This document shows, in pieces, positions 1 through 31,038 of a DNA stretch of 64,000 bases. Below the pieces are notes generated by a model. That model saw only the letters and a program-made list of their open reading frames with translations. It had not been told where the DNA came from and made no database searches. Position 1 is the stretch's first letter. Each line of letters begins with the position of its first letter. The position numbers and the translations under genes are program-made. The stretch lies in the NCBI GenBank assembly GCA_000004985.1, contig GG738904.1; one strand, written 5' to 3'. Origin of the DNA: Naegleria gruberi. Lineage: Eukaryota.

Positions 1-723
1 TCTGAACATTGGGTTTATTTGGTCGATTCTAAGGGATTAGTTACACAAACTCGTTCTGATTACGAAGAAATGCCACATCACAAGAAGAAGTATGCCAAGA
101 AGGGTGATGAAACTTTGGGTAACTTCCAATCCAAATCTCTTTTGGAAATTGTTCAAAAGACTCAACCAACTGCTCTCATTGGTCTCTGTGGTCAATCTGG
201 TGTTTTCACTCAAGATATCATTGAAGAAATGGCCAAGATTAACCAAAAGCCAATCGTTTTTGCCTTGTCCAACCCAACTAAGAATTCTGAATGTACTGCC
301 AAGGAAGCTATTGAATATTCAAGTGGAAGAGCTATCTTTGCTTCTGGTTCTCCATTCGAAGATGTTACTTACAATGGAAAGACTTATCAATTGAGTCAAG
401 GTAACAATTTGTACATTTTCCCAGCTTTGGGTCTTGGTGCTGTCGTTACCAGATCAAAGCACGTTTCTGATGTTATGATTTTGAGAGCTGCTCAAACTTT
501 GGCCGATCTCACAAGCCAAGATAGATTGGACAATGGATTGTTGTATCCAAGTTTGACAAATATCAGAGAAATTGCTCAAAAGATTGCTGTCCAAGTTGGT
601 AAACAAAGTGTTAAGGAAGGTCTTTCTCAATTGACTGAAGAACAATTACCAAAATCTGAAGAAGAATGGGTTAAAATTGTTAAGGATTATGTATATACTC
701 CAGATTATGAGTCCAAATTGTAA
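1..723 (+). CDS. NAD(P)-dependent malic enzyme, C-terminal part (5' end lies outside the window)
   Basis: The frame is open from base 1. Translation ...WVYLVDSKGLVTQTR...IVFALSNPTKNSECTAKEAIEYSSGRAIFASGSPF...QGNNLYIFPALGLG matches the conserved malic-enzyme C-terminal half (IWLVDSKGL, IIFALSNPT, GRAIFASGSPF, QGNNxYxFPG). The stop is at 721-723. Codon bias is strong (AAG/TTG/CAA/GGT), suggesting high expression. Confidence 0.85.
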   Translation, partial: SEHWVYLVDSKGLVTQTRSDYEEMPHHKKKYAKKGDETLGNFQSKSLLEIVQKTQPTALIGLCGQSGVFTQDIIEEMAKINQKPIVFALSNPTKNSECTAKEAIEYSSGRAIFASGSPFEDVTYNGKTYQLSQGNNLYIFPALGLGAVVTRSKHVSDVMILRAAQTLADLTSQDRLDNGLLYPSLTNIREIAQKIAVQVGKQSVKEGLSQLTEEQLPKSEEEWVKIVKDYVYTPDYESKL

Positions 724-1081
724 ATATTTCAACAATTAATTTAAACCAACTATTATAAACATTTAATATTTCACTGATATTATTTCACACACTTTCAATA
801 TATTCTCCATTCCAATCGCAACAGCGTCCAACCATACTCAATTCTGTCCAATTCTATCTAAATGCAACCTGAGGATCTCCTTCACAACCAAGCGCATCAA
901 CCAAACACTAGTCCGACCAGCACTACGATCCTAGTGCACTTCAATTAATATCATGTCATGAAATCTCTCCACCGTATTACTTTTAAACAAAAAGAAAAAA
1001 AATCTCCAATTGTTAACTGTACAAATCTTTCATCTTTTTCCGAAAGTTAGAGAATAATTTGAAAGAGAAGGTGAACACAAA

Positions 1082-2092
1082 ATGACTAGTCAAGAGAGTA
1101 ATGATGGATCAATTTCCTATGGATGGTGGATTGCCACTCTTTTAATAGGAATTGTCCTGATGAGAATATTGCAATTAATTATGAAATTGAAAAGACAAAT
1201 AAGCAAGGCTGGTGGAACTCCTGGTTATTGGCAATTATTGGCTGAAGGCTTGTTTATCATGCCAATTCTTTCGCCCTATATTGCTCATGGTAATTTCCCA
1301 GTGATTCAAGGATTGATTGCTAAGGAGGAAGAGAGAGCTAAGGGAAGTGATGAAAAGCAATTGATTATTCGTGTCAGTACTCCCTATAGAAATAATTATG
1401 TAATTTGGGATAAGGATTCAGTGAAGGAAGTTTTAGTTACAAAATCATCATCCTTTCCAAAACCTTTGGATTTTTATGAACCTTTCAATATTTTCGATAA
1501 GGATGCTACTTCAATTTTGACAGCTGCCGATGGTCCAGTTTGGAAGAATCATAGACATGTGGTGGCTCCTTCATTCTCAACTGGTAATTTGGTTTTTATG
1601 AGTCAAGTGACTGTAAAGACAGTTGATGCATTGTTTAGAACAAAGTGGAATAAGTTATTGGACCAGGATAGTAAGGGATTCATTATGGATATGGAAGATA
1701 CTACAGCTGTCACTCTTCAAATTATTGGTGAAAGTGGATTTGGTATGGATTTTGGTGTTTTCGATGAAACTAGCTCTGATTCTAAAAAGTTTAGAGAAGC
1801 ATTGAATATTGTCGTGAGAGTTGACTATTATGCCAGATTCTTCCTTGCTAAAATCCCATTCCTTTACAATGCAGTTTCTGATTATACTGGAAATACAGAA
1901 GCTCTCAAGGTGATGAGTGAAAAGCTTGAACAATGCATTTCTCAAAGAGTAGCCGAATTCAAACAAGATCCAGAAAAACCAATGAATGATTTATTGTCGC
2001 TCCTTGTTAAGGCAAACATGATGGATGAAAAACTCACACTCAATGAATTGAAGAGTAACAGTTACATCTTCGTAGTTGCAGGTCATGAGTAT
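1082..2092 (+). CDS. Cytochrome P450 #1 (CYP4-clan-like), first exon through the I-helix AGHE
   Basis: The ORF has an N-terminal TM anchor, P450 core motifs (WKNHRHVVAPSFS, GESGFGMDFGVFDE) and ends ...FVVAGHE, the I-helix AGHETT. The reading frame is lost right after catgag at 2092. The continuation TTATTMQW... is found 5.1 kb downstream. Confidence 0.75.
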
Positions 2093-2685
2093 TGAAAATC
2101 AGAAGGTGTTCTTAAAGATGGTCACTGGTGCCATCAATGGTTTGATTCGTGGATTTTGGTTAAAGATATTATTCCACTTGAAGAACATTCTTCAATTATT
2201 AGGAGATGTTACAGCATGCTATGTGGAAAGTACCGTTAATATTTCCAAAGATATTTTGGAAATGTACAGTTTCATAATGAAGGAATCATTTTTGGAAAGA
2301 TTAAATTCAAGAATTGAGGAGAGAAATCTTTTATGTATTGATTTTGAAATTGTTAACAATGGATTGGTAGATAGGAATGCAGAGTGTTTTAACTCATGGT
2401 ATGAAAATGTATCTAAACATCTTATTGATTGGTCAAGTAAGGCTGTAAGTAATCGATTTGCAGAGTTTACAGAGTTAGTGGATGAAATTTTTGGTCAAGT
2501 TAAGAATGATTATGCAATGATTGCTGATAAAACTATTGAAAAGAGAACAATGGAGTATAATTTTATTACTGAAAAGAAGAGAAGATTGACAGAATTGATC
2601 AAAGAGTTAAAAAAGTAGATTGGTAATGAGTAAATTGAATTGTGTCTGTGCAATTCTGATTGTATTCTTGTAAAGTGGTGATGGT

Positions 2686-3050
2686 ACCTGTCAGGTACCG
2701 TCACAGGTACTTGGCAGGTACGATTTTTACCATCACAGGTACCGTCACAGGTACTTGGCAGGTATCACAGGTACCATCAGGTACCATCAGGTACCATCAC
2801 AGGTACCGTCACAGGTGCAAATGGTACCTGACAAGTACAATCACAGGTACCGTCACAGGTATCTGAATTTCCTCACAGGTACCATCACAGGTACTTGGCA
2901 GGTATCACAGGTACCATCACAGGTACCATCACAGGTACCGTCACAAGTACTTGGACCATCACAAGTACCCTTACAAGGACTTGTAAGGTGCTCAACACGT
3001 ACCTACAGTGTCTGACAAGTATGGTACCTCACAATAACCATCACAGCTAC
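2686..3050. repeat. Minisatellite: ~30 degenerate tandem copies of a 12-nt unit (A/G)TCACAGGTACC
   Basis: Reading the sequence directly: atcacaggtacc, gtcacaggtac and ttggcaggta variants repeat head-to-tail across ~365 bp, with many GGTACC (KpnI) cores. It lies inside the P450 #1 insertion. Confidence 0.8.
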
Positions 3051-3099
3051 AACAAACACCATAACAAATACTTTTTATATCTCCTCCAATCAACTATAT

Positions 3100-4299
3100 T
3101 TATTTGAAATATTTGGATTTCTTAATAGGTCTATGGACATTATGATCATTTTCTGAATCAGAACTAATACCACCTCTATCTGAAGAATCTTCTTCAACAT
3201 CTTCTTCTTCATCATCCTCTTCAACTTCACAATGATCAGCATTTCCAAAGCAAATATTGTACCAAATTGGAGGACCTTCATCAGACTTGTTACAATCATC
3301 TTTATCCATTTGCTTTTCAAAGAATAACTCCATTTCAAAGGCATCAAGTTCTTCATTCAATTGAATAACATCCTTAACAGGTGGTTCTATGATGGCTTCC
3401 TCTTCAATATAACCATTCTCATTGTAACGATTGATGAGAAGAACTGTTTCCTTTGAGGTGTCAAATATCTCTTCTTCCTCCTTCTCATTAAAATCAATAC
3501 TTTCATCATCTGCTATAGTTGCAGATTCCTTCTTTTCATACTCCACAATTAAATTCAAACCACTAACATCTGGTTTGATTACAAGACTGGAAAGCGTGTC
3601 TTCATTTAGAGATGGCAAATCATCATATGGGAAAACAATACTTTGAGTTTCACTAACGGATGAGTATCCATCTTGATCTGCTCTAGCCATTTCGACAGAA
3701 TCATCATCAGTGAGTGCATCATCTTCTGTTAGAATCAATGGTTCATTAAATACATCAACTTGTTCTTCCATCTGAGTTTCTGCACTTGATATAATCAATA
3801 AAGGTTGAACCAATTCATATCTCTCATTGGTGTAAGAGTAAAGGTCAATGTCATCATTGTTTAATAACAAGTTTAACAATGTTGAATTACTAGTCTGTGA
3901 AAGCACTTTTCCCTTCTTACTAAACTCTCCAACAAATGCTTGGAAATTGAATTCACTATTACATTGTTCCAACTCTTTGAAATAAATCAAAGAAGGGTTC
4001 ATTTCAAGTAAATCTGCCAAATCTTCTAATTTACTATCCATGGATAAAAAGTCATCATGCTTCTTCTCCTTAAAAATCAAAAGTAAGAGACAAAGTGCAA
4101 AATAATCACAAGAGTAATCTGCTGATAATCCATTAATATCATCTTGATTGATAGGATCGTTACCAAGCCAAAAAGATGTCAATTCCTTCCTTAGCTTGAT
4201 ATCCAAATAACAGAAATCACTGACAACTTCACTATAAAATTTCTTCTTTACTAATTCTTCTACTAAACACCACTTGTTGAAATATGTATTGTACAACAT
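3100..4299 (-). CDS. Hypothetical acidic protein (399 aa, D/E-rich, no recognised domain)
   Basis: It is a long uninterrupted minus-strand ORF with genome-typical codon usage. It has D/E-rich tracts (EEDDEEEDVEEDSSD). I recognise no domain. Confidence 0.4.
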   Translation of the reverse strand: MLYNTYFNKWCLVEELVKKKFYSEVVSDFCYLDIKLRKELTSFWLGNDPINQDDINGLSADYSCDYFALCLLLLIFKEKKHDDFLSMDSKLEDLADLLEMNPSLIYFKELEQCNSEFNFQAFVGEFSKKGKVLSQTSNSTLLNLLLNNDDIDLYSYTNERYELVQPLLIISSAETQMEEQVDVFNEPLILTEDDALTDDDSVEMARADQDGYSSVSETQSIVFPYDDLPSLNEDTLSSLVIKPDVSGLNLIVEYEKKESATIADDESIDFNEKEEEEIFDTSKETVLLINRYNENGYIEEEAIIEPPVKDVIQLNEELDAFEMELFFEKQMDKDDCNKSDEGPPIWYNICFGNADHCEVEEDDEEEDVEEDSSDRGGISSDSENDHNVHRPIKKSKYFK

Positions 4300-4590
4300 G
4301 ATGGATTATTCCTTTTTTTTCAAAAACAAAAGCTTTCACACAACCTCGAGTCGTGTGAAATGTCTCACACTCTAATATTTTAATATTTTTATAAGGCTTG
4401 AATATATATATATATATATTGAAAAGGGATTGACCGAAACTGGAAGACACATTAATTGGATATCTAAAGAGACCAAACAAATTTTCCTCAGAATTGAAGA
4501 GTCACGTCGCTACGTCCCTCAAGACATCCACACAACTTTGCAAATTAATACAATTGAGAAAAAAAAACTACTTTTATTTTCGACTCAACT

Positions 4591-6966
4591 TTGTTACAAG
4601 TAACAACACACATCAAATTCCAACACAGAACTCAATATAGCAGAATGATAAGAAAAAACTGGTTAAAAGAAGAAGAAGATCTTTTGGTCAAATTGGTAAA
4701 GGAAAAAGGCCACAATTGGACTGAAATTGCTCCCAACTTCGATGTTACTCCAAATGCCTGCCACAAAAAGTATAAGGATTTGTTAAAGAATCTTGGCAGG
4801 AAAAGATCGTTCTGGACTGATGAAATGAAAGCTAATCTCCTTAAATTAGCAAAAGAATATGCCGATAAAGGAATAGAGAAATGGAAGATTATTGAGGAAA
4901 AATTAGGAAAAGAAGCTAAAGCTTGCCAACAGCATTTTTATTATTTAGTCAAACAGCACGGGTTGGATTCTAATGATTTCAACAGCGTCAGACCATTTTG
5001 GACCATGGAAGAGAAGCGCGAATTGACTGAGTTAGTCAATTTGCATGGAAGGAAGTGGAAGAAAATTGAGAAACTAATTAGCTGCAACAGAGATGCTCAT
5101 TCTTGTCAGAGCCAGTTTATGCTATTAGAAAGTAGACAGAATGATCCAATTGAAAAGAAGTTGAACGATATCTTTCAAGCAACGACTTCAGAGACAGATT
5201 TGAATGAAATCTCTCTTTACGAATTCTTCAATATCCCAACAAGTAGATACAATGGGGTTCCAGCATCGACTTTGTTGGTGGATCAAGCAGATGAAGTTGA
5301 TGAAGAAACATTTCATCGTTCTTACATGGCTGGAGATACTGAATTTAGTGTACGTGAGGTTGCAACTGGTAGATTGGTCAGAAAAACCATTGAGGAGATT
5401 TATCTTTCCAGTGGAACATATGAAACATATAGTATTGAATCTGGATTTAATGTGGAAGAAATTGGTAAGTTTCGTTTCAATTACTATTTTCAAAGAATAA
5501 TAATAATGAAAGAATGTAAATTGTTTCCAGCAAATGAAGTATTAGAGTTGAGTGCTACTTGTTTCAAAGCAAAATTATATTTCAATGAATGTGCTCGAAT
5601 TGTTGAAGAGAAACGTTTCATATTTTCCGAACAAGTTCAAGTCCGTCCAGATGAGTGCAGTAGTGTGAGATTACCTGTATCAGATCTTCAAGACAATATG
5701 TTCATCATTAATAACTATCAATTGAAATCCAAGGAAAAGCTTGTAAGAACATCATTACCATGTGGTCAACTTACTGACACCACCCAAACAAAAGAATGTA
5801 AGTATTTTATGAATTATTCTCATAATATTTTAAAGATTTTGACATTTTGTTCAGAACTTTCCCAACTCTAGTTGACTCCAAAGACAAACAGGGAGTCATG
5901 GTTCAACTATTGGGAGCCTATTTAGCAGATGGTGATGGAGGATACTTTAAATTGTATTTTAATGCCAAAAATGAGCAAGAACTTACCTATTATTTTACAG
6001 ATTTCTTAAAAGAAATTTGTGAATTGAATTCAGAGACAATAAGAGAGGATCTTAAATTCAAGAAAGAGGAAGAGTATGTCACCATTAAGCTCAATGATAA
6101 GAATGCTGACAAGGATATTGAACGAGTCTTACAAAATGGTTATCAAATATCCGGGTCCATACTTGTTGCACCTGCATGGTATGTTTTTCACTTTCAATAC
6201 ATTTTTACTAGTAACAAATAGTACTGGCTTACACAGATTTTTAAAAGAAATAGAATTGTTATGTAATAAGTATAATGGCAGTTACCAAACTAGAAAGAAT
6301 TTCTCTTCCATCTTCAACATTACAAATTTTGGTATGTTTAGCTTGTACAAATTTTTCGAAGGTTCTGTACAAGGAGATGGCACATTAGAGAGTAATCGTG
6401 TAACGTTTGGTCAGAATTGTTCAATTTCAGATACTCACCAACAGTACTTTAATCAGGTCCACCATTGTGCAACCATGCTTGGGTTAAAGACTGGCGTGGG
6501 TAAAGTGTGTGAAGAAACTACAGGTTTGAAAATGACTGGTAAGAACATGACCATTTTTGAAAGTGAAGGACTTGAGAAAAAGAAAGTAAATGCAGATGTT
6601 GTGTTTAGACCATTTAATCTTACAGTTCAAAGATTAATAGGTGAATCAATGAAGAAGATGTACTGTTTCAAGAAGAGTAATCACTCCTTCCCAATGTTTA
6701 ATGGAATGATAGTGCAAAATGTTGATACTGATCTAGTTTCTGCTAAAATATGTTATGGGAATAGATGGGAAATTCGTGAAATGGACAACTATGAATCTGC
6801 TGCCACTTTCTGCTTGAAGAAATATATTGCTTCCTTAGGGTTTCCAAGTGACCGTATGACAAGAAATGCTGTAAGAAGATTAATACTAAAAATAGAAGGA
6901 ATAGTATCTGTTAAAAGAAAGCAAAAATCAAACAAGGAATCAAACAAGAAAGTTAAAACACAATAA
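4591..6966 (+). CDS. Three-repeat Myb/SANT-like protein with a C-terminal LAGLIDADG-like motif region (3 exons inferred)
   Basis: Exon 1 (to ~5797) encodes three W-x19-21-W Myb/SANT repeats (WLKEEEDLLVKLVKEKGHNWTEIAPNF; WTDEMKANLLKLAKEYADKGIEKWKII; WTMEEKRELTELVNLHGRKWKKIEKLI). A GTAAGT donor at 5798 and a tattttaaAG acceptor at 5835 join in frame to FDILFRTFPTLVDSKDKQGVMVQLLGAYLADGDGGYFKLYF, which carries a LAGLIDADG-like hhDGDG motif. A GTATGT donor at ~6179 and aaatAG acceptor at ~6221 join to the 6076..6966 frame. That frame has a weaker second motif, LYKFFEGSVQGDGTL. The true start may be the Met of MIRKNW at ~4645. Confidence 0.5.
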
Positions 6967-7128
6967 CATTTCAATTAAAGAATATATTTACTGAACTTTA
7001 TTAAATGACTTTTTATTTCTGAATAAACAAAAGTATATTGAGCACTTTTGCATCCATTTGAAAATTGACAATCATTTCTGCTGAAATGGTCATGTAAGAA
7101 GTATGAATTATGTCATTCTGGAAACTCT

Positions 7129-7186
7129 TCGTATTCATCCACCTGTAACATGTGTTTAGAGTTGCTAAGAAGACAACCACATGAGG
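7129..7186 (+). pseudogene. Relic P450 fragments: ETLRIHPPV pseudo-exon followed by an ACATGAG micro-exon-like copy
   Basis: gaaactcttcgtattcatccacctgta translates to ETLRIHPPV and is followed by a stop. This is the P450 K-helix/ECLRLHPPV region, out of order relative to the gene. Immediately 3', acatgag|gttcgtg... is homologous to the micro-exon plus donor of P450 #2 at 24333-24345. Confidence 0.4.
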
Positions 7187-7234
7187 TTCGTGTTTTATAA
7201 TTAATTTTACAAGTGTTTAACAAAATATTTAAGA

Positions 7235-7842
7235 CGACTGCCACAACCATGCAATGGTTAATGTACGAATTGTCCAAGCGTCCAGAAGCTCAACAAAAGG
7301 CCAGAGAAGAAGCAATCAGAATTGGAGGAGGTGACAATGTTTTGAGAGCTCCAGATTTTGATGATTACAACAATATGGACTATATTCATGGTTGTGTAAT
7401 GGAATGCTTACGTCTCCATCCACCAGTCGTTTCCATGGTAAAAACCTGTGCCAAATCTACCAAAATTGGAAAAACAAGCATTCCAAAGGGATCTTGCATC
7501 TATGTAAATGCCAAGGCCTGTCACTTGTACGGTGAAGATTTTAACACCACTGAATTTACTGGTGCTCAATTCGCTCCAGAAAGATTTTTGGATAAGGATT
7601 TCAAACAAAAGGTTCAAACAAGTGGAGCATGGTTCCCATTCAATATGAGTAATAGAAAATGCATTGGTTACATGTTTGCCCAAATTGAATTGTGTATCAT
7701 GTTGTGTAGAATGTTGCAATTTTATGAATTCAAATTGTTGAATGATGAAAGTAAACCAGCTGAGAAGGTTGAAGATCTTCCTGGTATTACCTTTAGACCA
7801 TCTTCTAATTTGAAGGTTTTGGTAACAAGAAGAACAAAATAA
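7235..7842 (+). CDS. Cytochrome P450 #1, terminal exon (I-helix TT... through heme loop to stop)
   Basis: It follows the acceptor tttaag and translates TTATTMQWLMYELSK...ECLRLHPPV...FPFNMSNRKCIGYMFAQIEL (PFxxGxRxCxG cysteine loop, CYP4-like). The stop is at 7840-7842. It pairs with the exon at 1082-2092. The exon start is ±2 nt. Confidence 0.75.
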
Positions 7843-7964: not shown

Positions 7965-9035
7965 ATGTCTGATGACCAAAAACAAGAAGAAATTGCTTCG
8001 GAAGAAACCATGGAACATATCGCCCAACTGATCAACAAGGCAAGAAGAGTCGTTGTATTTTCTGGTGCTGGTATGAGTGCAGAGTCTGGAATTGATACTT
8101 TCAGAGGAGGAGGTGGTTTATGGACCGGATTGATGGGAAAATTGTTTTTGGCTTATGGAGGTGAGTGGATTTGTCTTTAAATTCGTGTTTATATATATTG
8201 GATATATTGGATTGTATTTAAAATTATTAAAATTATTTAAATATTATTTGATGGTAATTGATTGGAATAATTTATAAATTAATTATTCGTGTGATGATTA
8301 TATGAATGAATGAATTGATGGAATATGATAATATTAGGAACACCATTTGGATGGAATATAACACCACAGATTTGTTGGGGACAATATATTAAACGATTTT
8401 ATGGACCGATTGCTAAAGCTGATCCAAATAATGGACATTTTGCATTGGCCAAGTTGGAACAAGAAGTGTTTGGAGATTATATGGAAGTTATTACACAAAA
8501 TGTTGATGGATTGCATCAAAGAGCTGGATCAACTCATGTCTATGAAGTGCATGGTACAGTAATGAGACATTGCTGTATTGCTGAACGTCACATTTTCGAT
8601 TTTGATGAATATTGGGGAGAAGAGAATGATGAAAAGAAAATGGACTTGCCAGACAAGTCACCAAAATGCAAACATCCAGGGTGTAATAGTACACTTCGTC
8701 CTGATTGTGTCCTATTTACAGAAGCCCTGCCAATGGACCAATGGGAACCTTCTTTCCATGCAGTTGACAGAATGAGAAAGGGAGATGTCATGATTTGTGT
8801 TGGAACAAGTGCCAAGGTCTATCCAGCTGCTTCACTTCCTGGAAGAGCTGCCAGAAGAGGAGCTCATTTAATTGAATTCAATTTGGAAGAAACAGATTAC
8901 AATCAATTACCGAATTATATATTCGTTAAGGGTCCAAGTGGTCAAACACTTCCAACCATTGTAGATAGAGTAATTGAATTGAGAAATGCAAATCAATCAA
9001 TACCATCGGAAAATATTTCTCAAATTGTAGAATAA
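7965..9035 (+). CDS. NAD-dependent protein deacylase, sirtuin (class III/SIRT5-like), 2 exons
   Basis: Exon 1 is 7965-8160 and contains GAGMSAESGIDTFRGGGGLW, the Sir2 NAD-binding motif. The intron has a GTGAGT donor at 8161 and a ttAG acceptor at 8337 and runs in phase 1. Exon 2 is 8338-9035 with QNVDGLHQRAG, HG, the Zn ribbon CC...CKHPGC...C, and GTSAKVYPAASLP. Confidence 0.8.
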
Positions 9036-23238: not shown

Positions 23239-24928
23239 ATGGCTTTAAGCGAAATTATTTTGGGAATTGTTTGCGTTTTTGCTGCAATTCTTCTCTTCTT
23301 CCTCATTTCAATTTATAATAATTATAAGAAAGTGAGTCACATTCCAGGTGCTTTCCAATTCTTCTTGACTTTTAAGAATATTCCAATCATTTCACCTTAT
23401 TTGAGTTTCGATGGACACAAGAGAATGGAACAATTGGTCAAAACTCACGGAGATCCAAAAACTGGACTTGTCAGATTATCCATGTTCGATAGAAATATGG
23501 TTGTAGTTTCAGATAGAGACATGTTGAAGGAATTGTTGGTCGTTAAGGGTGGAATTTTCATCAAATCTTGGAAATTATATGAAGTTTTCAATGCTTTCGG
23601 CAAGAATATCTTATCAATTCTCGATGGTACCAGTGATTCATGGAAAAATCATCACAAAGTAGCTTCAGGTGCTTTTGCTTCTAAAAATTTGGAATACATG
23701 TCAAGAGTTGCCTCAAAATCTTTGGATTTGTGTAAGGAAAGTAAATGGGATGGTGAAATGGAAAAGGCATTGAAGGAAGGAAAGGAAGGTATTATTATTG
23801 ATACCAATGCTGATTTTAGTGATATTACTTTGGGTAAGTTTCGAATTTTGACATTGTCATGTTGACCTTTCGAATAATAGACGTTCTTGGTAAGGCTGCT
23901 TTCGGTTTGGACTTTTCCATCTTTGATGAAACTAACCCAGAAGGTAGAATTTTCAGAAAATCCCTCGAAAAGATGTTTACCACTGGTGTAATCTTAAAAC
24001 GTTTCGTCGGATTAAATCCAGTCCTTTCCTGGGCTTTCCCATGGGCTTGCAAATATACTGGTTTAGATAAGGCAGTAAAAGTTGTGAGTGATAAGTTGGA
24101 TGCAATCATTGCGGAAAGAACTCGTGAAGTAGAATTGCGTGGAATGGAAGATGGAAACACATCCGAAACTGGTGTTGAAGAAAGAAAGGATTTGTTGAGT
24201 GTTTTGGTTGAAGCCAATTTCATTCAAAAGGGAATCTTGTCAGGTGATGAACTCAAATCTGACGCTTATATCTTTTCGCTTGCTGGGTATGTATTCGAAT
24301 TTTAAACTATTTGTCCTAATTTATTTTCATAGACATGAGGTTCGTATTTGCAAATTTACAATTTTTTGTAATGATTTTTTTATTTGAAATTTTAGACAAC
24401 TTCAACAACTTTACAATGGGTTTGTTACGAATTATCAACAAAACCAGATATTCAAAATAAGATTCGTGAAGAGATTGATTTACATCTCGGAAAGGGTGTA
24501 AATGCCAGAGCTCCAAACTTTGACGATTATCCAATTATGAACTATGTCAATGCTGTCATTATGGAAACTGCAAATAGAAGTGATCGAAACTGGGATAAAC
24601 CTTTAGAATTCATTCCAGAAAGATATCCAATGAATGCTGAAGAACAATTGAGAATTCAACATGATTTCACTTGGATTCCATTCTCTATGGGTAATCGTAA
24701 ATGCATTGTAAGTACTTTTTGAAAATTTCACAAGTTTACAAAATTTTTCAGGGTTTCAAGTTTGCTCAAATTGAAGCTTTTACAATTCTTGTAAGATTAC
24801 TTCAATTCTATGAATTAGGATTGGATAATGATGAATCTAATCCAAAGGATCAAATTGTTGATGTTCCTGGCGTTACAGTTCGTCCAGGAAATTGTAGAAT
24901 TATTCTCAAACCAAGAAAGGATCTTTAA
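23239..24928 (+). CDS. Cytochrome P450 #2 (paralog of #1), 5 exons including a 7-nt micro-exon
   Basis: The exons are 23239-23833, 23881-24286, 24333-24339 (ACATGAG encoding (G)HE of AGHETT), 24396-24707 and 24752-24928. The donors are GTAAGT/GTATGT/GTTCGT and the introns are 44-56 nt, with consistent phases. The protein has ...DVLGKAAFGLDF...FSLAGHETTSTTLQWVCYEL...PFSMGNRKCIGFKFAQIEAF. Confidence 0.8.
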
Positions 24929-25509
24929 TTTCGAATACAATTTTGTAAATAGTAAAAATAAATAAAATAATTTAATTCATAATATTGTTGATGATACAGT
25001 GGAGGTTGAAAATGCAATTACAAGTTGTGGTTGTTTGAAAATTTATGGAGCTTGTCAGAGGGTAAATACTGACATGTACAGTTGACAAGATCTTGAGTAA
25101 TAATGAAGATCTTTTGGAGTTTAGAATCAATTTTGTTAACACTTACAATTGGATGTTTCTCATCCTCTTCGATCTGAGCTTTACAGCAAGTAATATTTCC
25201 AAAAATAGCTATTGTTTGCAATGTTAAAAAAATTAATGAGACACATTTTCGATATTTTGTTTAAAATTACCTCAAATGCAAGGTGGAAAAACAAAATTAT
25301 TTCTTTTAAGGTCTAAGTGTTTCATAATATGTCTGTTGCCAACAACCTGCCAATCCACTACAAATTAAATCTGCACAGCTTTTGAAAATAACATTTTGCG
25401 TCTAAACCACACGCCCCAACAAAAAAAATGCAACAAACAAGAATGCTTCACTCATCACCCAACCATTCCCACAACACCAACAACAAAAAAATCACAATAT
25501 TAATTCATC

Positions 25510-26389
25510 ATGAGCAAAGGTATAAACAAATCATCAGTAAGTAACCATATAAACAAGTACTCTAATAATTATAAAAGAACACTAAGAAGAAAACTAACAC
25601 CAAGACAACTGTGAAGAAAACCAACACCAAGAACACTGTGAAGAATACCAATACCAAGAACACTGTGAAGAACACTGTGAAGAACACCAATAAGAAGAAT
25701 ACCATCAAAAAGAAGAATCCAAAGCGTAAGTGTTATTGTTATTTATTAATTTACTAACATTGTTAATAGTTGCTCGGGAAGTTGTCAATTACACAACTGT
25801 GAATGCCAAATGGTTCCTTTATGCTCCAACCACCACCGAAAGTGGTTTCAAAGCTACATTTATTCCAGTCAGTGGTCCATTTAACAGAGTTGAAGAAATG
25901 AAACGAGTTGCTTGTTTGCAAATGTTTTGTGAAAGTTGTGCTATAACTTTGGGTTTTTATTTGGATCCAAGTATGTTCAAAAGATTTCAAACTGGTATTC
26001 GTATTGCATCATTGAAACCTGAATGGTTCTCTCATTATTTCGAGTCATGTGGTGGAAAAATGAAAAACAGAGTTCAATATATTCGTTACAATGGTCACAG
26101 TTTGAGTATTACTTGTCCTTCTTATGAATTCTATGGTTTGGAAAATATGCCACCTTTGAATTGTAATGGTAGTTATGCAAGCACGGTTTTTCAAGTTTCC
26201 CAACCAATATTGATGAACCATCCATTTCAACCACACTTTAAATGGATTGAACAGTGGAAATTTGTTTACAGATTGTATTTCTCTAAACTCGTATTTATAT
26301 GCAATCCAGTAACGAATATGGTTTCAGTAGATTTGGAATTTACAAAGGATGTACAAAGTATGGATTGTACTGGTTTCCAAATTGTTTAA
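25510..26389 (+). CDS. Hypothetical protein with N-terminal K/N/T-rich tandem-repeat region, 3 exons
   Basis: Exon 1 is 25510-25536 (MSKGINKSS). A 41-nt GTAAGT intron follows. Exon 2 is 25578-25725 and encodes (NTVKNT)n repeats from a 21-nt DNA tandem repeat, aacactgtgaagaa(c/t)accaa. A 44-nt intron with a ttTACTAACat branch site follows. Exon 3 is 25770-26389 and has no recognised domain. Confidence 0.5.
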
Positions 26390-26399
26390 TAAATAATTT

Positions 26400-26879
26400 T
26401 TATTCATTAAAATCAATTAATGACAAGTCACATTCTTCTCGTTTCAATTTCAAGAATAGCACATTATTGAACTTGAATGGATTTTCTGCTAAATTGTCTG
26501 TTGTATCAACATGAACAAATAAAGACTTGAAGGCTCTATTTTCTGCATACAAAATTGAATTTAAAGAGTAAAGTTTTAATCTTCGGGTTGCAGAGGGTAA
26601 ATCAAATACTTCACGTAGAATTTTCAAATATTTAGTATCTGTAAATTCTACAACACCTTCATCCTCATCAATTCCATAATCAATCAAAGTTCTTTTTAAT
26701 TCATCCATTAGAGCTCTTGGATTAACAATAGATGGTTTCATAACACAATTCGGAATATACAGATGATCATAAAATTGATCATCTGTAATTTCTTCTCCTT
26801 CACAACAAATCATAACTACGGGCAATTCGTAAATGGTGTTATAAATAGGAATTATATTGGCTTCAGCAACACGAGGCAT
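26400..26879 (-). CDS. Hypothetical protein (160 aa; the extended N-terminus in the ORF track is translation of the upstream repeat)
   Basis: The likely start is MPRVAEANIIPIYNT. The ORF track extends it through the 78-bp repeat, which is probably 5'UTR or promoter. Confidence 0.4.
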   Translation of the reverse strand: MPRVAEANIIPIYNTIYELPVVMICCEGEEITDDQFYDHLYIPNCVMKPSIVNPRALMDELKRTLIDYGIDEDEGVVEFTDTKYLKILREVFDLPSATRRLKLYSLNSILYAENRAFKSLFVHVDTTDNLAENPFKFNNVLFLKLKREECDLSLIDFNE

Positions 26880-26890
26880 TTTGTCAGTTA

Positions 26891-26968
26891 AAATATTTGA
26901 TCGTCGATTCCCCGTGCCAGTGTTGTGGTAGTAAAAGTGATTCCGTAATCGACTCTCAAAAAAACTGA
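26891..26968. repeat. Direct repeat copy 1 (~78 bp), immediately 5' of the H3-variant ATG
   Basis: aaaatatttgatcgtcgattccccgtgccagtgttgtggtagtaaaagtgattccgtaatcgactctcaaaaa matches 30545-30622 with 4 mismatches. It contains an internal inverted repeat, gtcgattcc...(g)gaatcgac. Confidence 0.7.
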
Positions 26969-26971
26969 AAA

Positions 26972-27532
26972 ATGACTCAAACTTCTTCATCAACAGCAGA
27001 AACATCTACAGAAACCTCGGAAGTTCCAAACAACACATCAACCAAAACACCATCAACAACACCATCAAAAACACTATCAAAAACATCAACCAAAACACCA
27101 TCAAAAACATCAACCAAAACACCATCAAAAACACCAAGAAAAACACCAAGAAAAACACCAAAAAAAACACCAGCAAAGAAATCTGCAAAAAAACCATTCA
27201 CAGGAGGAATTAAAAAGCCACACAGATATAGACCAGGTACTGTAGCTTTAAGAGAAATCCGAAAGTATCAAAAAAGCACTGAATTATTGATAAAAAAAAA
27301 ACCTTTTTGTAGGTTGGTGAGAGAAGTTGCTCAAGATTACAAATCTGATGTTAGATTTCAAGCGAATTCACTCCTTGCACTTCAAGAAGCAGCTGAGGCA
27401 TTTATTATTGATATTTTTGAGGATACTAATCTTTGTGCCATTCACTCCAAAAGAGTTACTATTTTGCTCAAAGATATGCAACTTGCATTAAGAGTAAAAG
27501 GTGTTAATTATATTGGTTTATTAAATAAATAA
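26972..27532 (+). CDS. Histone H3 variant with extended repetitive N-terminal tail
   Basis: The histone fold [94 protein letters not shown] is near-identical in layout to canonical H3. The N-tail is replaced by (K)[22 protein letters not shown] repeats. The gene has no intron. Confidence 0.8.
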
Positions 27533-27565
27533 TATTAATCATCATCATTTAATATCTTTAAAAAA

Positions 27566-27749
27566 ATGTCTTGTACTTTAGAAGATATTTTTCAAGACAC
27601 ACAATTCAAAAAGTTCAACGATAAAGGAAAACCGTATTGTGAAGGAGTTGTACATTTAAAACAAGAAGACTTATACAAATTTTTAGGAATAAAAGAAGTT
27701 AAAAAGAAAAGGATATTAGAAACCTCCGAATTAAATCGATGTAAAAATG
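27566..27749 (+). CDS. SAM-domain-like N-terminal ORF running into the assembly gap (partial)
   Basis: MSCTLEDIFQDTQFKKFNDKGKPYCEGVVHLKQEDLYKFLGIKEVKKKRIL shows the SAM pattern L..DL..LGI....R..IL. The ORF continues as X because of the N run. Confidence 0.4.
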
Positions 27750-28919
27750 NNNNNNNNNNNNNNNNNNNNNNNNNNNNNNNNNNNNNNNNNNNNNNNNNNN
27801 NNNNNNNNNNNNNNNNNNNNNNNNNNNNNNNNNNNNNNNNNNNNNNNNNNNNNNNNNNNNNNNNNNNNNNNNNNNNNNNNNNNNNNNNNNNNNNNNNNNN
27901 NNNNNNNNNNNNNNNNNNNNNNNNNNNNNNNNNNNNNNNNNNNNNNNNNNNNNNNNNNNNNNNNNNNNNNNNNNNNNNNNNNNNNNNNNNNNNNNNNNNN
28001 NNNNNNNNNNNNNNNNNNNNNNNNNNNNNNNNNNNNNNNNNNNNNNNNNNNNNNNNNNNNNNNNNNNNNNNNNNNNNNNNNNNNNNNNNNNNNNNNNNNN
28101 NNNNNNNNNNNNNNNNNNNNNNNNNNNNNNNNNNNNNNNNNNNNNNNNNNNNNNNNNNNNNNNNNNNNNNNNNNNNNNNNNNNNNNNNNNNNNNNNNNNN
28201 NNNNNNNNNNNNNNNNNNNNNNNNNNNNNNNNNNNNNNNNNNNNNNNNNNNNNNNNNNNNNNNNNNNNNNNNNNNNNNNNNNNNNNNNNNNNNNNNNNNN
28301 NNNNNNNNNNNNNNNNNNNNNNNNNNNNNNNNNNNNNNNNNNNNNNNNNNNNNNNNNNNNNNNNNNNNNNNNNNNNNNNNNNNNNNNNNNNNNNNNNNNN
28401 NNNNNNNNNNNNNNNNNNNNNNNNNNNNNNNNNNNNNNNNNNNNNNNNNNNNNNNNNNNNNNNNNNNNNNNNNNNNNNNNNNNNNNNNNNNNNNNNNNNN
28501 NNNNNNNNNNNNNNNNNNNNNNNNNNNNNNNNNNNNNNNNNNNNNNNNNNNNNNNNNNNNNNNNNNNNNNNNNNNNNNNNNNNNNNNNNNNNNNNNNNNN
28601 NNNNNNNNNNNNNNNNNNNNNNNNNNNNNNNNNNNNNNNNNNNNNNNNNNNNNNNNNNNNNNNNNNNNNNNNNNNNNNNNNNNNNNNNNNNNNNNNNNNN
28701 NNNNNNNNNNNNNNNNNNNNNNNNNNNNNNNNNNNNNNNNNNNNNNNNNNNNNNNNNNNNNNNNNNNNNNNNNNNNNNNNNNNNNNNNNNNNNNNNNNNN
28801 NNNNNNNNNNNNNNNNNNNNNNNNNNNNNNNNNNNNNNNNNNNNNNNNNNNNNNNNNNNNNNNNNNNNNNNNNNNNNNNNNNNNNNNNNNNNNNNNNNNN
28901 NNNNNNNNNNNNNNNNNNN
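27750..28919. other. Assembly gap (N run, ~1170 nt)
   Basis: A continuous run of n. ORF-track proteins made of X (27566..28951, 27592..28938, front of 27747..30545) are artefacts of the gap. Confidence 0.95.
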
Positions 28920-30545: not shown

Positions 30546-30622
30546 AAATATTTGATCGTCGATTCCCCGTGCCAGTGTTGTGGTAGTCAAAGCGATTCCG
30601 GAATCGACTTTCAAAAATTCAA
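30545..30622. repeat. Direct repeat copy 2 (~78 bp), immediately 3' of the large 28920-30545 ORF
   Basis: The same element as copy 1. It is also followed within 10 bp by an ATG, here opening only a 21-codon ORF. Confidence 0.7.
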
Positions 30623-31038
30623 TAAAATGTGCCATCAAATAAAATTTTATCAAAGGCCTTTATTGTTAGAAATAATAATTATTATTTAAATATTAAACAT
30701 TGTTACTTCATATAATCAAATTAAAAGCATGTTAAATGTTTAATATATAACAAATAATAACTGTAATAATCGGAATTGTAAAATTCTGGAAGATTTTAAA
30801 CAGTAGTGGTTTTAATTGGTTCAAAAAGTGGCAAAAAAAAATTTGGCGCAAAGAGCGGTCGACAATTTGTCGAGTCTTGCTGAATGGTTATTTTCAACTC
30901 TAGATTTGTAGTGTGAAAAGCAAACATTCAATTTCAAAATCTCTTTTACCCGAATGGCCTTTTGCGGTTAGAGCTCGTTATCACGCACTTGCTCAAGAAT
31001 CATTTTGAAAAAAAAACTTTACGAAACTTGCCTAAACC

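What the first reader, a model, noticed from the sequence alone, without database searches (positions are those of the whole stretch)
2087..7240. ~5.1-kb insertion exactly at the I-helix exon/intron boundary of a P450 gene, flanked by a CATGAG duplication
P450 #1 reads ...FVVAGHE (catgag at 2087-2092) and then loses frame. The continuation TTATTMQW... resumes at ~7235, after gttcgtg...tttaag. In the paralog P450 #2, the same junction is a 56-nt intron, gag|gttcgt...tttag|ac. In P450 #1, the sequence immediately 5' of the retained short intron is again CATGAG (7181-7186). So about 5.09 kb (2093-7180) is bracketed by a direct 6-bp duplication of the exon end, which looks like a target-site duplication. 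The inserted block carries its own gene content: a 3xMyb/SANT gene with a LAGLIDADG-like motif, a 399-aa acidic ORF, a 180-aa ORF, a 12-nt minisatellite and a scrambled P450 fragment (ETLRIHPPV). No donor/acceptor pair restores the P450 frame across this block, so the gene is either disrupted or relies on non-canonical splicing. I cannot find TIRs or LTRs at the termini (tattgaaaatcag ... aagacaacca).
Basis: partly seen in the sequence, partly recalled or inferred. Interest (0 to 1): 0.7.

Follow-up and report, generated by a model that had tools for sequence, protein, structure and literature searches.

The report
Mobile gene cassette splitting a P450 gene
In the sequenced Naegleria gruberi strain, a 5.1-kb block of genes sits in the most conserved codons of a cytochrome P450 gene, is absent from a 98%-identical wild relative, and looks more like a recombination-driven "homing" cassette than a cut-and-paste transposon, although that mechanism is inferred and not shown.

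Summary
The window is Naegleria gruberi NEG-M. The block is real. P450 #1 (1082-2089 and 7234-7842) is split at AGHE|TT, and JGI annotates the halves as two genes. A syntenic metagenome contig that is 98% identical reads straight through the site as one ORF. Relative to that allele the insert is 2090-7233 (5144 bp). It therefore includes the second CATGAG (7180-7185, not 7181-7186) and the 48-nt "retained intron".

The empty allele reads CACGAA at the site. The 24 nt left of the insert carry 9 differences, against 11 in the other 2065 nt (p 1e-13).

The cassette has no TIRs, LTRs, transposase, reverse transcriptase or ribozyme. Its acidic ORF and its Myb gene also lie next to each other on another NEG-M scaffold (99% and about 95% aa identity). 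Its right end is an 86-nt K-helix pseudo-fragment of the P450 #2 lineage, followed by ACATGAG+GTTCGT, which is identical to P450 #2's microexon/intron junction.

My best reading (about 0.4) is a P450-associated cassette copied in by gene conversion, possibly driven by its own Myb-fused, intein-like LAGLIDADG protein, as in yeast WHO elements. The LAGLIDADG call rests on motifs only.

The parts
1082..2089 (+). P450 #1, 5' part. Annotated as the truncated gene NAEGRDRAFT_73304, 337 aa, ending AGHEY*.
   Evidence: Translation of 1082-2092 equals P0003. Pfam p450 when joined to 7234-7842.
2066..2089 (+). Hyper-divergent 24-nt patch (IFVVAGHE codons) directly left of the insert.
   Evidence: 9 of 24 differences from the empty allele L003, against 11 of 2065 in the rest of the left flank. 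Fisher p 1e-13. Mostly synonymous third positions.
2084..2089 (+). Left CATGAG (His-Glu codons of the I-helix AGHETT motif).
2090..7233 (+). DNA present in NEG-M and absent from the empty allele (5144 bp). A 2-nt placement ambiguity (AG) exists.
   Evidence: L003 and L004 align to 1-2088 and 7234-7661 at 98-99% identity, with nothing in between.
2085..2618 (+). ORF of 177 aa from an ATG inside the left CATGAG. No homologues found. Reality as a gene is unproven.
2683..2950 (.). 12-nt minisatellite (TACCATCACAGG, about 20 copies). Also present in a decayed copy in the relative.
3100..4299 (-). 399-aa acidic ORF (NAEGRDRAFT_73306). Has a 98.7%-identical paralogue on another scaffold.
   Evidence: pI 4.05.
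4645..6966 (+). Gene NAEGRDRAFT_73307. Exons are 4645-5464, 5531-5797, 5836-6178 and 6222-6966. It encodes three Myb repeats followed by a region with intein-like blocks and two LAGLIDADG-like motifs.
   Evidence: Model equals P0001. Pfam Myb 4.6e-20. Pfam Hom_end only E 0.15. hhalign to PI-SceI E 0.13.
7095..7180 (+). Pseudo-fragment of a P450 #2-lineage K-helix (MNYVILETLRIHPPV..VFRVAKKTTT, with one frameshift and a 9-nt deletion).
   Evidence: blastn 85.6% over 90 nt to the relative's P450 #2 allele L007 (E 4e-22). blastp E 6e-11 to the N. fowleri orthologue P0007.
7180..7185 (+). Right CATGAG. Together with the preceding A and the following GTTCGT it is identical to the P450 #2 microexon/intron B junction.
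7186..7233 (+). 48-nt spliceosomal-type intron (GTTCGT...TTTAAG), absent from the empty allele.
7234..7842 (+). P450 #1, 3' part. Annotated from 7249 as the separate gene NAEGRDRAFT_73308.
23239..24929 (+). P450 #2 (NAEGRDRAFT_73318), used for comparison. It has a 7-nt microexon at 24333-24339 and intron B at 24340-24395. A NEG-M-specific 111-nt in-frame deletion lies at 24568, just after the K-helix MET.

Best explanation
**What is shown.**
- The sequenced strain (N. gruberi NEG-M) carries 5144 bp inside the AGHE|TT codons of a P450 gene. A 98%-identical relative lacks this DNA.
- The block is a multi-gene cassette with no transposon hallmarks.
- At least its two large genes are found together at a second NEG-M locus. 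A decayed piece of the cassette is in the relative.
- The insert is bordered by P450-type sequence that does not match the empty allele. On the left there is a 24-nt patch that is recoded relative to the empty allele. On the right there is a P450 #2-lineage K-helix pseudo-fragment joined to an 'HE' microexon-like CATGAG plus a short intron. That intron ends exactly where P450 #1 resumes.

**What is inferred.**
- The cassette was copied into, or exchanged at, this site by homology-guided double-strand-break repair (gene conversion) from a donor in which the cassette already sat between P450 I-helix sequences.
- It did not arrive by cut-and-paste transposition.
- The duplicated CATGAG is then two homologous His-Glu codon pairs from two P450 sources, not a target-site duplication.

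**Further inference, less certain.** The break is made by the cassette's own product. That protein has three Myb DNA-binding repeats fused to a degenerate intein-like region: block A SYMAGDT, two LAGLIDADG-like motifs that each keep the catalytic Asp, and blocks F/G ..HSFPMFNGMIVQN. On this reading the cassette is a nuclear homing-type selfish element targeting the conserved P450 I-helix sequence, working like yeast WHO elements. The host-gene fragments it carries would be relics, or homology arms, from earlier host P450s. Unlike WHO elements it appears to leave the host gene split.
For: - **Empty site.** It lies on a syntenic contig with the malic-enzyme gene upstream. L003 and L004 are 98.0% and 98.8% identical to the two flanks.
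- **Patch.** 9 of 24 differences against 11 of 2065, p 1e-13. Five consecutive synonymous third-position changes. This pattern fits sequence from a diverged homologue, not random mutation.
- **No transposon or ribozyme features.** No TIRs or LTRs. No transposase or reverse-transcriptase domain. No group I or II intron.
- **Second locus.** P0071 (5 of 399 aa different) and P0002 (about 95% identical in aligned parts) lie on one 573-kb scaffold with adjacent accession numbers. No second copy of either P450 #1 half is on record, so this is not a haplotig.
- **Copies are not freshly duplicated.** The roughly 5% aa divergence between the two Myb-gene copies exceeds the 0.6% between the P450 #1 alleles outside the patch. 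This argues against a recent one-off capture from the other NEG-M locus.
- **Host-gene relics.** The K-helix fragment assigns to the P450 #2 lineage. ACATGAGGTTCGT is identical 13 of 13 to the P450 #2 junction. The two pieces are joined through a 2-nt microhomology.
- **Insertion point.** It lies in the most conserved P450 motif, which is typical of homing elements (general knowledge of inteins and homing introns).
- **Nuclease candidate.** Pfam Myb, three repeats. The only Pfam match of the C-terminal region is Hom_end, the PI-SceI/HO family (E 0.15). The best hhalign and Smith-Waterman alignments to PI-SceI are collinear from LAGLIDADG motif 2 to the terminal VVHN / IVQN. Motif spacing is comparable to PI-SceI.
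- **Family distribution.** The family is known only from N. gruberi: P0001, P0002 and a 32%-identical third member, P0075.
- **WHO precedent.** Host-gene fragments beside the endonuclease gene and allele divergence abutting the cleavage site are described in PMC7282813 and in bioRxiv 10.64898/2026.08.13.744650.
Against: - **The LAGLIDADG/Hint assignment is not statistically supported.** Pfam gives 12.6 bits against a cut-off of 21.1. hhalign probability is below 1%. The shuffle z-score is 1.2. Both AlphaFold models failed, at pLDDT 33.
- **No cleavage activity, expression or target is known.**
- **The P450 is not kept intact.** A classical homing element, or a WHO element, would keep it intact.
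- **The flanks of the second copy could not be read.** A P450-embedded donor is therefore hypothetical. No other N. gruberi P450 more than 50% identical to P450 #1 turned up.
- **Patch polarity is unresolved.** NEG-M's IFVVAGHE looks ancestral at protein level, while its codons are the rarer ones.
- **A native intron is possible.** A position-0 intron exists in a related P450 (L008). The interior of the 48-nt intron is not significantly similar to P450 #2 intron B (z 0.17). So the intron may be native to P450 #1 and the 6-bp repeat may be a real TSD.
- **The paralogue may be decaying.** The gene model for P0002 skips LAGLIDADG motif 1.
Confidence: 0.4

Rival explanations
1. NEG-M's P450 #1 natively had a 48-nt intron at GHE|TT. 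A 5090-bp element (2090-7179) inserted at the exon/intron boundary through a staggered break, duplicating CATGAG. The relative separately lost the intron by a short gene conversion from an intron-less homologue, and that conversion also produced the 24-nt patch.
For: - There is an exact 6-bp direct repeat, and CATGAG occurs nowhere else in 5.3 kb.
- An intron at exactly this position exists in P450 #2 and in the P450 #1-clade contig L008, so it may be ancestral.
- The interior of the 48-nt intron is not detectably similar to P450 #2's intron B.
- NEG-M's patch matches the outgroups at protein level.
- The cassette is multi-copy.
Against: - No TIRs, LTRs, transposase, reverse transcriptase or poly(A).
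- It needs two independent rare events at the same nucleotide in two lineages that are 98-99% identical.
- It needs an element already carrying a P450 fragment to land by chance in another P450. On my rough estimate, P450 genes are well under 1% of the genome.
- N. lovaniensis and N. fowleri orthologues have their intron 8 nt downstream, not at this position.
- The 13-of-13 identity to the P450 #2 junction, with the rare GTTCGT donor, would be coincidence.
Confidence: 0.25
2. A one-off, non-selfish repair event. A spontaneous double-strand break in P450 #1 was patched by synthesis-dependent or microhomology-mediated repair that copied a 5-kb segment, plus P450 pseudogene pieces, from elsewhere, with template switches. 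The Myb gene is an ordinary host gene with no role in mobility.
For: - Scrambled order of P450 pieces: the K-helix fragment lies upstream of the I-helix microexon.
- 2-nt microhomology at their junction.
- No transposon features.
- Only two full copies are known in NEG-M.
- The nuclease assignment is statistically weak.
Against: - The two NEG-M copies differ by about 5% in the Myb protein, against 0.6% between the P450 #1 alleles. The window copy is therefore not a fresh copy of the other locus.
- A further decayed copy exists in the relative (89% identical), and a third divergent family member exists. Both point to a longer-lived repeated family.
- Both junctions fall at the same conserved codon boundary.
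Confidence: 0.2
3. An old, expanded intron that is still removed by the spliceosome, with nested genes. The P450 remains functional in NEG-M, and the relative lost the whole intron precisely.
For: - Both P450 halves are intact ORFs.
- Frame-preserving GT-AG paths exist. For example 2089 to 7172, a 13-nt exon, then the 48-nt intron.
- Microexons of 7 and 17 nt exist at this place in related P450s.
Against: - No GT-AG pair restores AGHETT. The best path inserts QPHE, including a proline, into the oxygen-binding groove.
- JGI models the gene as two truncated genes.
- The seven registers allowed by the repeat give GT..GA, TA..AG, AT..AC and so on, but never GT..AG (reasoned from the sequence, not computed).
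- Other introns seen in this window are 38-66 nt, and one of about 175 nt is read from the sequence at 8162-8336.
Confidence: 0.08
4. Assembly artefact. A repeat copy was wrongly placed inside the P450 in the draft assembly.
For: The assembly is a draft with gaps (1170 N at 27750-28919), and the cassette is repeated.
Against: - Both junctions are codon-precise.
- The window copy differs from the other copy.
- The flanking patch and the P450 relics are unique junction sequence.
- The two P450 halves lie in the right order and orientation.
Confidence: 0.03

Closest known systems
WHO elements of Torulaspora and Lachancea yeasts, and the domesticated HO endonuclease (Coughlan et al. 2020, PMC7282813; Osborne et al. 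2026 preprint)
   Same: - A free-standing gene, not translated within the host protein, for an intein-like LAGLIDADG protein fused to an extra DNA-binding domain.
- It sits at a conserved host enzyme gene.
- Pseudo-fragments of the host gene family lie beside it.
- Alleles are nearly identical up to the site and sharply diverged right at it.
- Extra copies occur at other loci.
- No TIRs and no TSD are required.
   Different: - The DNA-binding domain is an N-terminal triple Myb repeat, not a C-terminal zinc finger.
- The host gene is a P450, not FBA1.
- The host gene is split rather than given a replacement 3' half.
- The cassette carries two more ORFs and a minisatellite.
- The organism is a heterolobosean, not a yeast.
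- Similarity of the nuclease region to HO/VDE is sub-threshold.
- No cleavage data exist.
VMA1 intein / PI-SceI (VDE) and other homing inteins
   Same: - Insertion in the most conserved motif of a conserved enzyme.
- Collinear motif order: A-like block, two LAGLIDADG-like motifs, F/G-like block ending IVQN (against VVHN).
   Different: - Not in frame with the host.
- It has its own start codon, its own introns and a Myb domain.
- Ser in place of Cys1 and Gln in place of the penultimate His, so protein splicing is not expected.
- The 5-kb block contains other genes.
Cut-and-paste DNA transposons with target-site duplications. The same window holds a clear example at 25356-30913.
   Same: A discrete presence/absence polymorphism, multi-copy, flanked by a 6-bp direct repeat.
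   Different: No terminal inverted repeats and no transposase domain. The empty allele does not contain the repeated hexamer. The flank is recoded.
Intron gain or insertion by double-strand-break repair with short flanking direct repeats (proposed for Daphnia by Li et al. 2009; recalled from memory, not checked here)
   Same: Short direct repeats flank newly inserted DNA at a site that behaves as an intron position. Several different intron positions cluster within 25 nt of this site in related P450s.
   Different: The insert is 5 kb with genes. It has no GT-AG ends of its own. It is repeated elsewhere.

Membership tests
TIR cut-and-paste DNA transposon | Terminal inverted repeats at the ends of the insert | tested here: not met
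   The repeat finder on 1900-7400 finds no inverted repeat at the termini, using either 2090/7179 or 2090/7233 as ends.
TIR cut-and-paste DNA transposon | Encoded transposase (DDE, hAT, Mutator, PIF and similar) | tested here: not met
   Pfam and PHROGs scans of all four products find only Myb domains.
TIR cut-and-paste DNA transposon | Target-site duplication: one copy of the repeat present at the empty site | tested here: inconclusive
   CATGAG flanks 2090-7179. The only empty allele reads CACGAA and lacks the 48-nt intron. It lies in a recoded patch, so the pre-insertion sequence of the NEG-M lineage is unknown.
LTR or non-LTR retrotransposon | LTRs or a poly(A) tail, and reverse transcriptase | tested here: not met
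   No long direct repeats at the ends. No RT domain. No A-run at either end.
LAGLIDADG homing endonuclease, PI-SceI/HO type (Pfam Hom_end) | Two LAGLIDADG motifs, each with a conserved acidic residue, about 100 aa apart | tested here: met
   LLGAYLADG (Asp394) and FFEGSVQGDG (Asp529) in P0001, 135 aa apart, against 108 aa in PI-SceI. This is motif-level reading only.
LAGLIDADG homing endonuclease, PI-SceI/HO type (Pfam Hom_end) | Significant profile match to the family | tested here: not met
   Pfam Hom_end 12.6 bits, E 0.15, cut-off 21.1. hhalign to PI-SceI E 0.13. PDB sequence searches hit only the Myb domains or unrelated proteins, and no LAGLIDADG or intein protein. Shuffle z-score 1.2.
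LAGLIDADG homing endonuclease, PI-SceI/HO type (Pfam Hom_end) | Alpha-beta-beta-alpha-beta-beta-alpha fold pair, flanked by a Hint fold | tested here: inconclusive
   Two AlphaFold2 runs gave mean pLDDT 33. No fold search was attempted on such models.
LAGLIDADG homing endonuclease, PI-SceI/HO type (Pfam Hom_end) | Site-specific cleavage of the empty allele | not testable with these tools
   Needs protein expression and cleavage assays.
Intein | In-frame insertion translated with the host protein. Cys/Ser/Thr at position 1 and at +1. Terminal His-Asn. | tested here: not met
   The gene has its own ATG at 4645, has three introns, and lies 2.5 kb from either P450 half. The block ends IVQN followed by Val.
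WHO element | Intein-like endonuclease fused to a zinc-finger domain | tested here: not met
   The extra domain is an N-terminal triple Myb. There is no CxxC-rich tail (sequence).
WHO element | Host-gene fragments beside the endonuclease gene | tested here: met
   P450 #2-lineage K-helix pseudo-fragment at 7095-7180 and an I-helix microexon-like piece at 7179-7185.
WHO element | Integration replaces part of the host gene and keeps it functional | tested here: not met
   After AGHE the frame runs into TAT TGA. The two halves are 5.1 kb apart. No canonical splice path restores AGHETT.
WHO element | Alleles nearly identical on one side and sharply diverged at the cleavage or integration site | tested here: met
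   0.5% divergence in 1082-2065 against 37% in 2066-2089. The diverged tract is only 24-27 nt, not a whole gene half.
Group I or group II homing intron | Self-splicing ribozyme core | tested here: not met
   An Rfam scan of 1900-7400 at E<=1 finds only three sub-threshold snoRNA or miRNA chance matches.
Spliceosomal intron (expanded) or introner | GT...AG ends whose removal restores the reading frame and the motif | tested here: not met
   Enumeration of GT and AG sites. The registers allowed by the 6-bp repeat never give GT..AG (read from the sequence).

The most novel reading that the evidence does not exclude
The cassette is a nuclear homing genetic element of a free-living excavate. Its Myb-fused, intein-derived LAGLIDADG nuclease recognises the DNA encoding the conserved P450 I-helix (...GGN CAT GAG|ACN ACT...). 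It moves between P450 alleles and paralogues by break-induced gene conversion and carries relics of earlier host P450s. On this reading three features would be traces of an arms race between nuclease and target: the recoded CACGAA patch of the empty allele, the tiny microexons, and the cluster of different intron positions (-17, -7, 0, +8) around this site in Naegleria-type P450s. Introns or recoding would be breaking up the recognition site. This would be the first WHO-like element outside budding yeasts, built with a different DNA-binding module.
Probability: 0.25. Interest if true: 0.85.

Novelty: new variant of a known kind. Interest (0 to 1): 0.6.

Why it matters
- **If the homing reading holds.** Free-standing, intein-derived endonuclease elements of the kind that gave rise to yeast HO would not be a fungal oddity. 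They would have arisen, or spread, in a very distant eukaryote with a different DNA-binding fusion.
- **Practical value.** It would supply a natural long-recognition-site nuclease candidate aimed at a conserved enzyme motif.
- **Intron evolution.** It would link selfish nucleases to intron and microexon turnover in their target genes, which could be tested directly by comparing N. gruberi strains.
- **If the mechanism is mundane.** The result still corrects the reference annotation. NAEGRDRAFT_73304 and NAEGRDRAFT_73308 are two halves of one P450 that is interrupted in NEG-M but intact in a close relative. The neighbouring P450 (NAEGRDRAFT_73318) carries a strain-specific 37-aa deletion that removes the ExxR arginine.

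Tried and rejected
- **Reading the second NEG-M copy.** The look-up of encoding contigs has no record for N. gruberi models P0001, P0002, P0075 or the 399-aa ORF. The flanks of the other copy could not be read.
- **Structure.** AlphaFold2 on the C-terminal 512 aa with a 3-sequence alignment, and on the 292-aa core alone, both gave pLDDT 33. Fold searches were therefore not run.
- **Remote homology for the nuclease part.**
  - Whole-library phmmer found only P0002 and P0075.
  - PDB phmmer and hmmsearch found nothing relevant.
  - NCBIfam and PHROGs found nothing relevant.
  - The pairwise shuffle test against PI-SceI was not significant.
- **Wider collections.** JGI metagenomes and IMG/VR hold no relatives of the nuclease region. 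A 32-nt exact probe for further P450 #1 alleles found none. Viral origin was rejected for lack of any hit and because the gene has spliceosomal introns.
- **Exact look-ups.** Seven exon-level ORFs were not in the collection. Only the full P450 #2 model was, and that led to the relative's allele L007.
- **Rejected element classes.** PIF/Harbinger (no DDE partner, no TIRs), Helitron, Crypton and Polinton (no Rep/Hel, tyrosine recombinase, polymerase or integrase domains), and group I/II introns.
- **An apparent intron similarity.** The 48-nt intron looked similar to P450 #2's fourth intron (z 4.6). I put this down to shared A/T-rich, branch-site-like motifs and do not take it as evidence of an introner family. 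No further copies are in the window.
- **Polarising the patch.** Codon usage and outgroup proteins point in opposite directions, so polarity remains unresolved.
- **Literature.** No paper describes a Myb-LAGLIDADG fusion or this element in Naegleria. The source project PRJEB11402 was not found.

Full report
**Identity of the window.** The Myb gene product matches 'predicted protein [Naegleria gruberi]' P0001, and its contig is 297,120 bp. My spliced models reproduce four JGI proteins exactly:
- P0001 = NAEGRDRAFT_73307
- P0003 = NAEGRDRAFT_73304
- P0076 = NAEGRDRAFT_73308
- P0077 = NAEGRDRAFT_73318

The window is therefore from the N. gruberi NEG-M draft assembly. It is AT-rich (about 33% GC) and has short introns.

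**Checking the observation.**
- P450 #1 runs from 1082 to ...GCA GGT CAT GAG at 2089, then reads TAT TGA.
- The frame resumes at 7234 (ACG ACT GCC ACA ACC ATG CAA TGG) after GTTCGT...TTTAAG (7186-7233, 48 nt).
- That short intron is itself preceded by CATGAG at 7180-7185.
- Joining the halves gives a full-length P450 (Pfam E 3.9e-63).
- JGI annotated the halves as separate genes of 337 aa (ending AGHEY*) and 197 aa.
- The listed contents are all there: the ORF at 2085-2618, the 12-nt minisatellite, the 399-aa acidic ORF (pI 4.05), the four-exon triple-Myb gene and the P450 fragment.
- No TIRs or LTRs exist, and there is no ribozyme.
- P450 #2 (23239-24929) does have gag|gttcgt with a 56-nt intron. 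There, ACATGAG is a 7-nt microexon between two introns.

**The empty site.** The 90% cluster of the truncated P450 contains a 478-aa protein (P0074). It is encoded on an ENA metagenome contig (L003, 7990 bp, run ERR1078381) and on the Logan assembly of the same run (L004).
- L003 has the malic-enzyme gene upstream, as in the window. It aligns to window 1-2088 at 98.0% and to 7234-7661 at 98.8%, with nothing in between.
- It reads ...TAC GTC ATG GTT ATT GCC GGC CAC GAA ACT ACT GCC ACA ACC ATG... as one ORF.
- Relative to this close relative, NEG-M therefore has 5144 extra bases (2090-7233). These include the second CATGAG and the 48-nt intron. The empty allele has CACGAA where NEG-M has CATGAG.
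- N. lovaniensis and N. fowleri orthologues (59-61% aa identity) have no 5-kb block. Their short intron lies 8 nt further downstream.

**A recoded patch at the junction.** Of the 20 mismatches between L003 and window 1-2089, nine lie in the last 24 nt (2066-2089). One more lies 3 nt into the right flank, and the next after that is 96 nt further on.
- Nine of 24 against 11 of 2065 gives p about 1e-13.
- The differences are five consecutive synonymous third positions plus conservative replacements (IFVV against VMVI). This is the pattern of a segment taken from a diverged but functional homologue, not of random damage.
- I could not tell which allele was converted. NEG-M's YIFVVAGHE matches outgroups, but its codons are the rarer ones.
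- Whichever allele it was, a short conversion-type tract ends exactly at the insertion point.

**The cassette is repeated.**
- The acidic ORF has a paralogue with 5 differences in 399 aa (P0071). The Myb gene has a paralogue about 95% identical in aligned parts (P0002). Both lie on one 573-kb scaffold with adjacent accession numbers.
- Neither P450 #1 half has a second copy on record. The other locus is therefore not an alternative haplotype of this one.
- The roughly 5% protein divergence between the Myb-gene copies is much larger than the 0.6% between the two P450 #1 alleles outside the patch. The window copy is therefore not a fresh copy of the other NEG-M locus.
- The relative's metagenome also holds a truncated copy, 89% identical, of the acidic ORF's last 100 codons plus the minisatellite (L005).
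- A third family member, 32% identical, sits on a 2.7-kb NEG-M scaffold (P0075).
- Nothing related was found in JGI metagenomes or IMG/VR.

**The right end is made of P450 relics.**
- The segment 7095-7180 translates, with one frameshift, to MNYVILETLRIHPPV..VFRVAKKTTT. Its best protein matches are the N. fowleri and N. lovaniensis orthologues of P450 #2 (E 6e-11).
- The relative's own P450 #2 allele (L007) matches it at 85.6% over 90 nt (E 4e-22).
- The fragment ends ...ACAACCAC and overlaps by 2 nt with ACATGAG|GTTCGT. Those 13 nt are identical to the P450 #2 microexon and intron B donor.
- GTTCGT occurs at only these two places among the ten short introns I compared.
- The second CATGAG can therefore be read as a homologous His-Glu codon pair from another P450, not as a target-site duplication.
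- Against this reading, the interior of the 48-nt intron is not detectably similar to intron B (z 0.17). Also, an environmental P450 #1-clade gene (L008) has a 17-nt microexon and an intron at exactly GHE|TT. A native intron in NEG-M, lost in the relative, therefore stays possible.

**The encoded protein.**
- Residues 1-165 are three Myb repeats. Pfam gives 4.6e-20, and the nearest solved relatives are Reb1, c-Myb and SNAPC4.
- The rest has no significant database match.
- By eye, and by the best sub-threshold alignments, it follows the order of an intein-derived endonuclease: SYMAGDTEFSV (block A-like, Ser226), LLGAYLADGDG (Asp394), FFEGSVQGDG (Asp529), and ..MYCFKKSNHSFPMFNGMIVQN (F/G-like, ending at 643).
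- PI-SceI, whose sequence I verified against PDB 1dfa, aligns collinearly from its second LAGLIDADG motif to its terminal VVHN. The statistics are insignificant, however.
- The only Pfam hit is Hom_end at E 0.15.
- Both AlphaFold attempts failed.
- I therefore treat 'Myb-fused intein-like LAGLIDADG nuclease' as a lead supported at motif level, not as an established fact.

**Interpretation.** Four points together favour a homology-guided copy (gene conversion) of a cassette already embedded in P450 sequence over cut-and-paste transposition:
- there is no transposon machinery;
- the cassette carries relics of another P450, and they end at the same codon boundary where it abuts P450 #1;
- a conversion-like patch ends at the junction;
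- the insertion lies in the family's most conserved motif.

The closest described system is the yeast WHO element family. It has a free-standing intein-like endonuclease with an added DNA-binding domain, host-gene fragments beside it, alleles 99% identical up to the site and strongly diverged beyond it, and secondary copies elsewhere (PMC7282813; preprint).

The present case fails WHO membership on two counts. It has a Myb domain where WHO proteins have a zinc finger. It splits the host gene instead of supplying a replacement half. No canonical splice path restores AGHETT, and the nearest gives AGHEQPHETT.

I give the homing-type reading 0.4. A non-selfish repair capture gets 0.2, a still-spliced giant intron 0.08, and misassembly 0.03.

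**What remains unexplained.**
- The polarity of the patch.
- Whether the 48-nt intron is native or imported.
- NEG-M's P450 #2 has a clean 111-nt deletion that starts right after the K-helix GAAACT, while the relative's allele is intact. The cassette's P450 fragment spans that very breakpoint. Whether this is coincidence or a related event is unknown.
- Intron positions around these codons differ among related P450s: -17 and 0 in L008, -7 and 0 in P450 #2, +8 in the N. lovaniensis and N. fowleri orthologues, and none in the relative's P450 #1 or in the N. lovaniensis P450 #2 orthologue. This would fit a recurrent break site, but that is speculation.

Noticed in passing
window 25356-30913: A second presence/absence difference between NEG-M and the relative. 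This 5558 bp (including the assembly gap) is missing from contig L007, which reads CCTGCCAATC|TGAAAAGC. The insert starts CACTACAAAT and ends ATTTGTAGTG, a perfect 10-bp CACTA-like terminal inverted repeat with no obvious TSD. It carries a histone H3 variant with a TPSKT-repeat tail (26972-27532; Pfam Histone 4e-37), two ORFs with no family match, and an ORF of more than 541 aa with no Pfam match (about 28.9-30.5 kb). It looks like a TIR transposon with cargo, about 430 bp downstream of P450 #2.
   Followed up: partly
window 24568 (P450 #2, NAEGRDRAFT_73318): NEG-M's P450 #2 has a clean in-frame 111-nt (37-aa) deletion directly after K-helix ..VIMET. It removes the ExxR arginine and the following strands. 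The relative's allele (L007) and the N. fowleri and N. lovaniensis orthologues are intact. The gene is probably non-functional in NEG-M.
   Followed up: yes
window 24333-24339; L008 1797-1813: Microexons of 7 nt (ACATGAG, P450 #2) and 17 nt (TTGTTGCTGGGCATGAA, environmental P450 #1-clade gene) encode part of the AGHE motif between two very short introns. Intron positions around this motif differ between related genes (-17, -7, 0, +8, or none). The N. lovaniensis orthologue of P450 #2 is entirely intronless.
   Followed up: partly
L005 (ENA ERZ929261 k127_254167) 486-1097: The relative carries a truncated copy, 89% identical, of the last 100 codons of the acidic ORF plus the minisatellite. It is joined to 485 nt of unrelated sequence. 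It is an old, decayed member of the cassette family.
   Followed up: partly
P0075 (NAEGRDRAFT_76925, on a 2689-bp NEG-M scaffold): A third, divergent member (32% identity, E 1.9e-12) of the intein-like/LAGLIDADG-like family. It has no Myb part in the annotated model and retains MVGLYMADGNS. Its DNA could not be retrieved.
   Followed up: partly
window 27750-28919: A run of 1170 N (a scaffold gap) inside the putative TIR element. ORFs listed across it are artefacts.
   Followed up: no
L001 813-1883 (N. lovaniensis): A DDE_3 transposase gene lies about 4 kb upstream of the N. lovaniensis orthologue of P450 #1. Gene neighbours of the orthologues (WD40, rhomboid, RGS) differ from those in N. gruberi (malic enzyme, and a downstream gene at 7965 that I did not identify with any tool), so synteny is not conserved.
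   Followed up: no
window 2085-2087 and 7181-7183: Each CATGAG contains an ATG. The left one opens the 177-aa ORF of the cassette, in the +1 frame relative to the P450. The right one opens only a 7-codon ORF.
   Followed up: no
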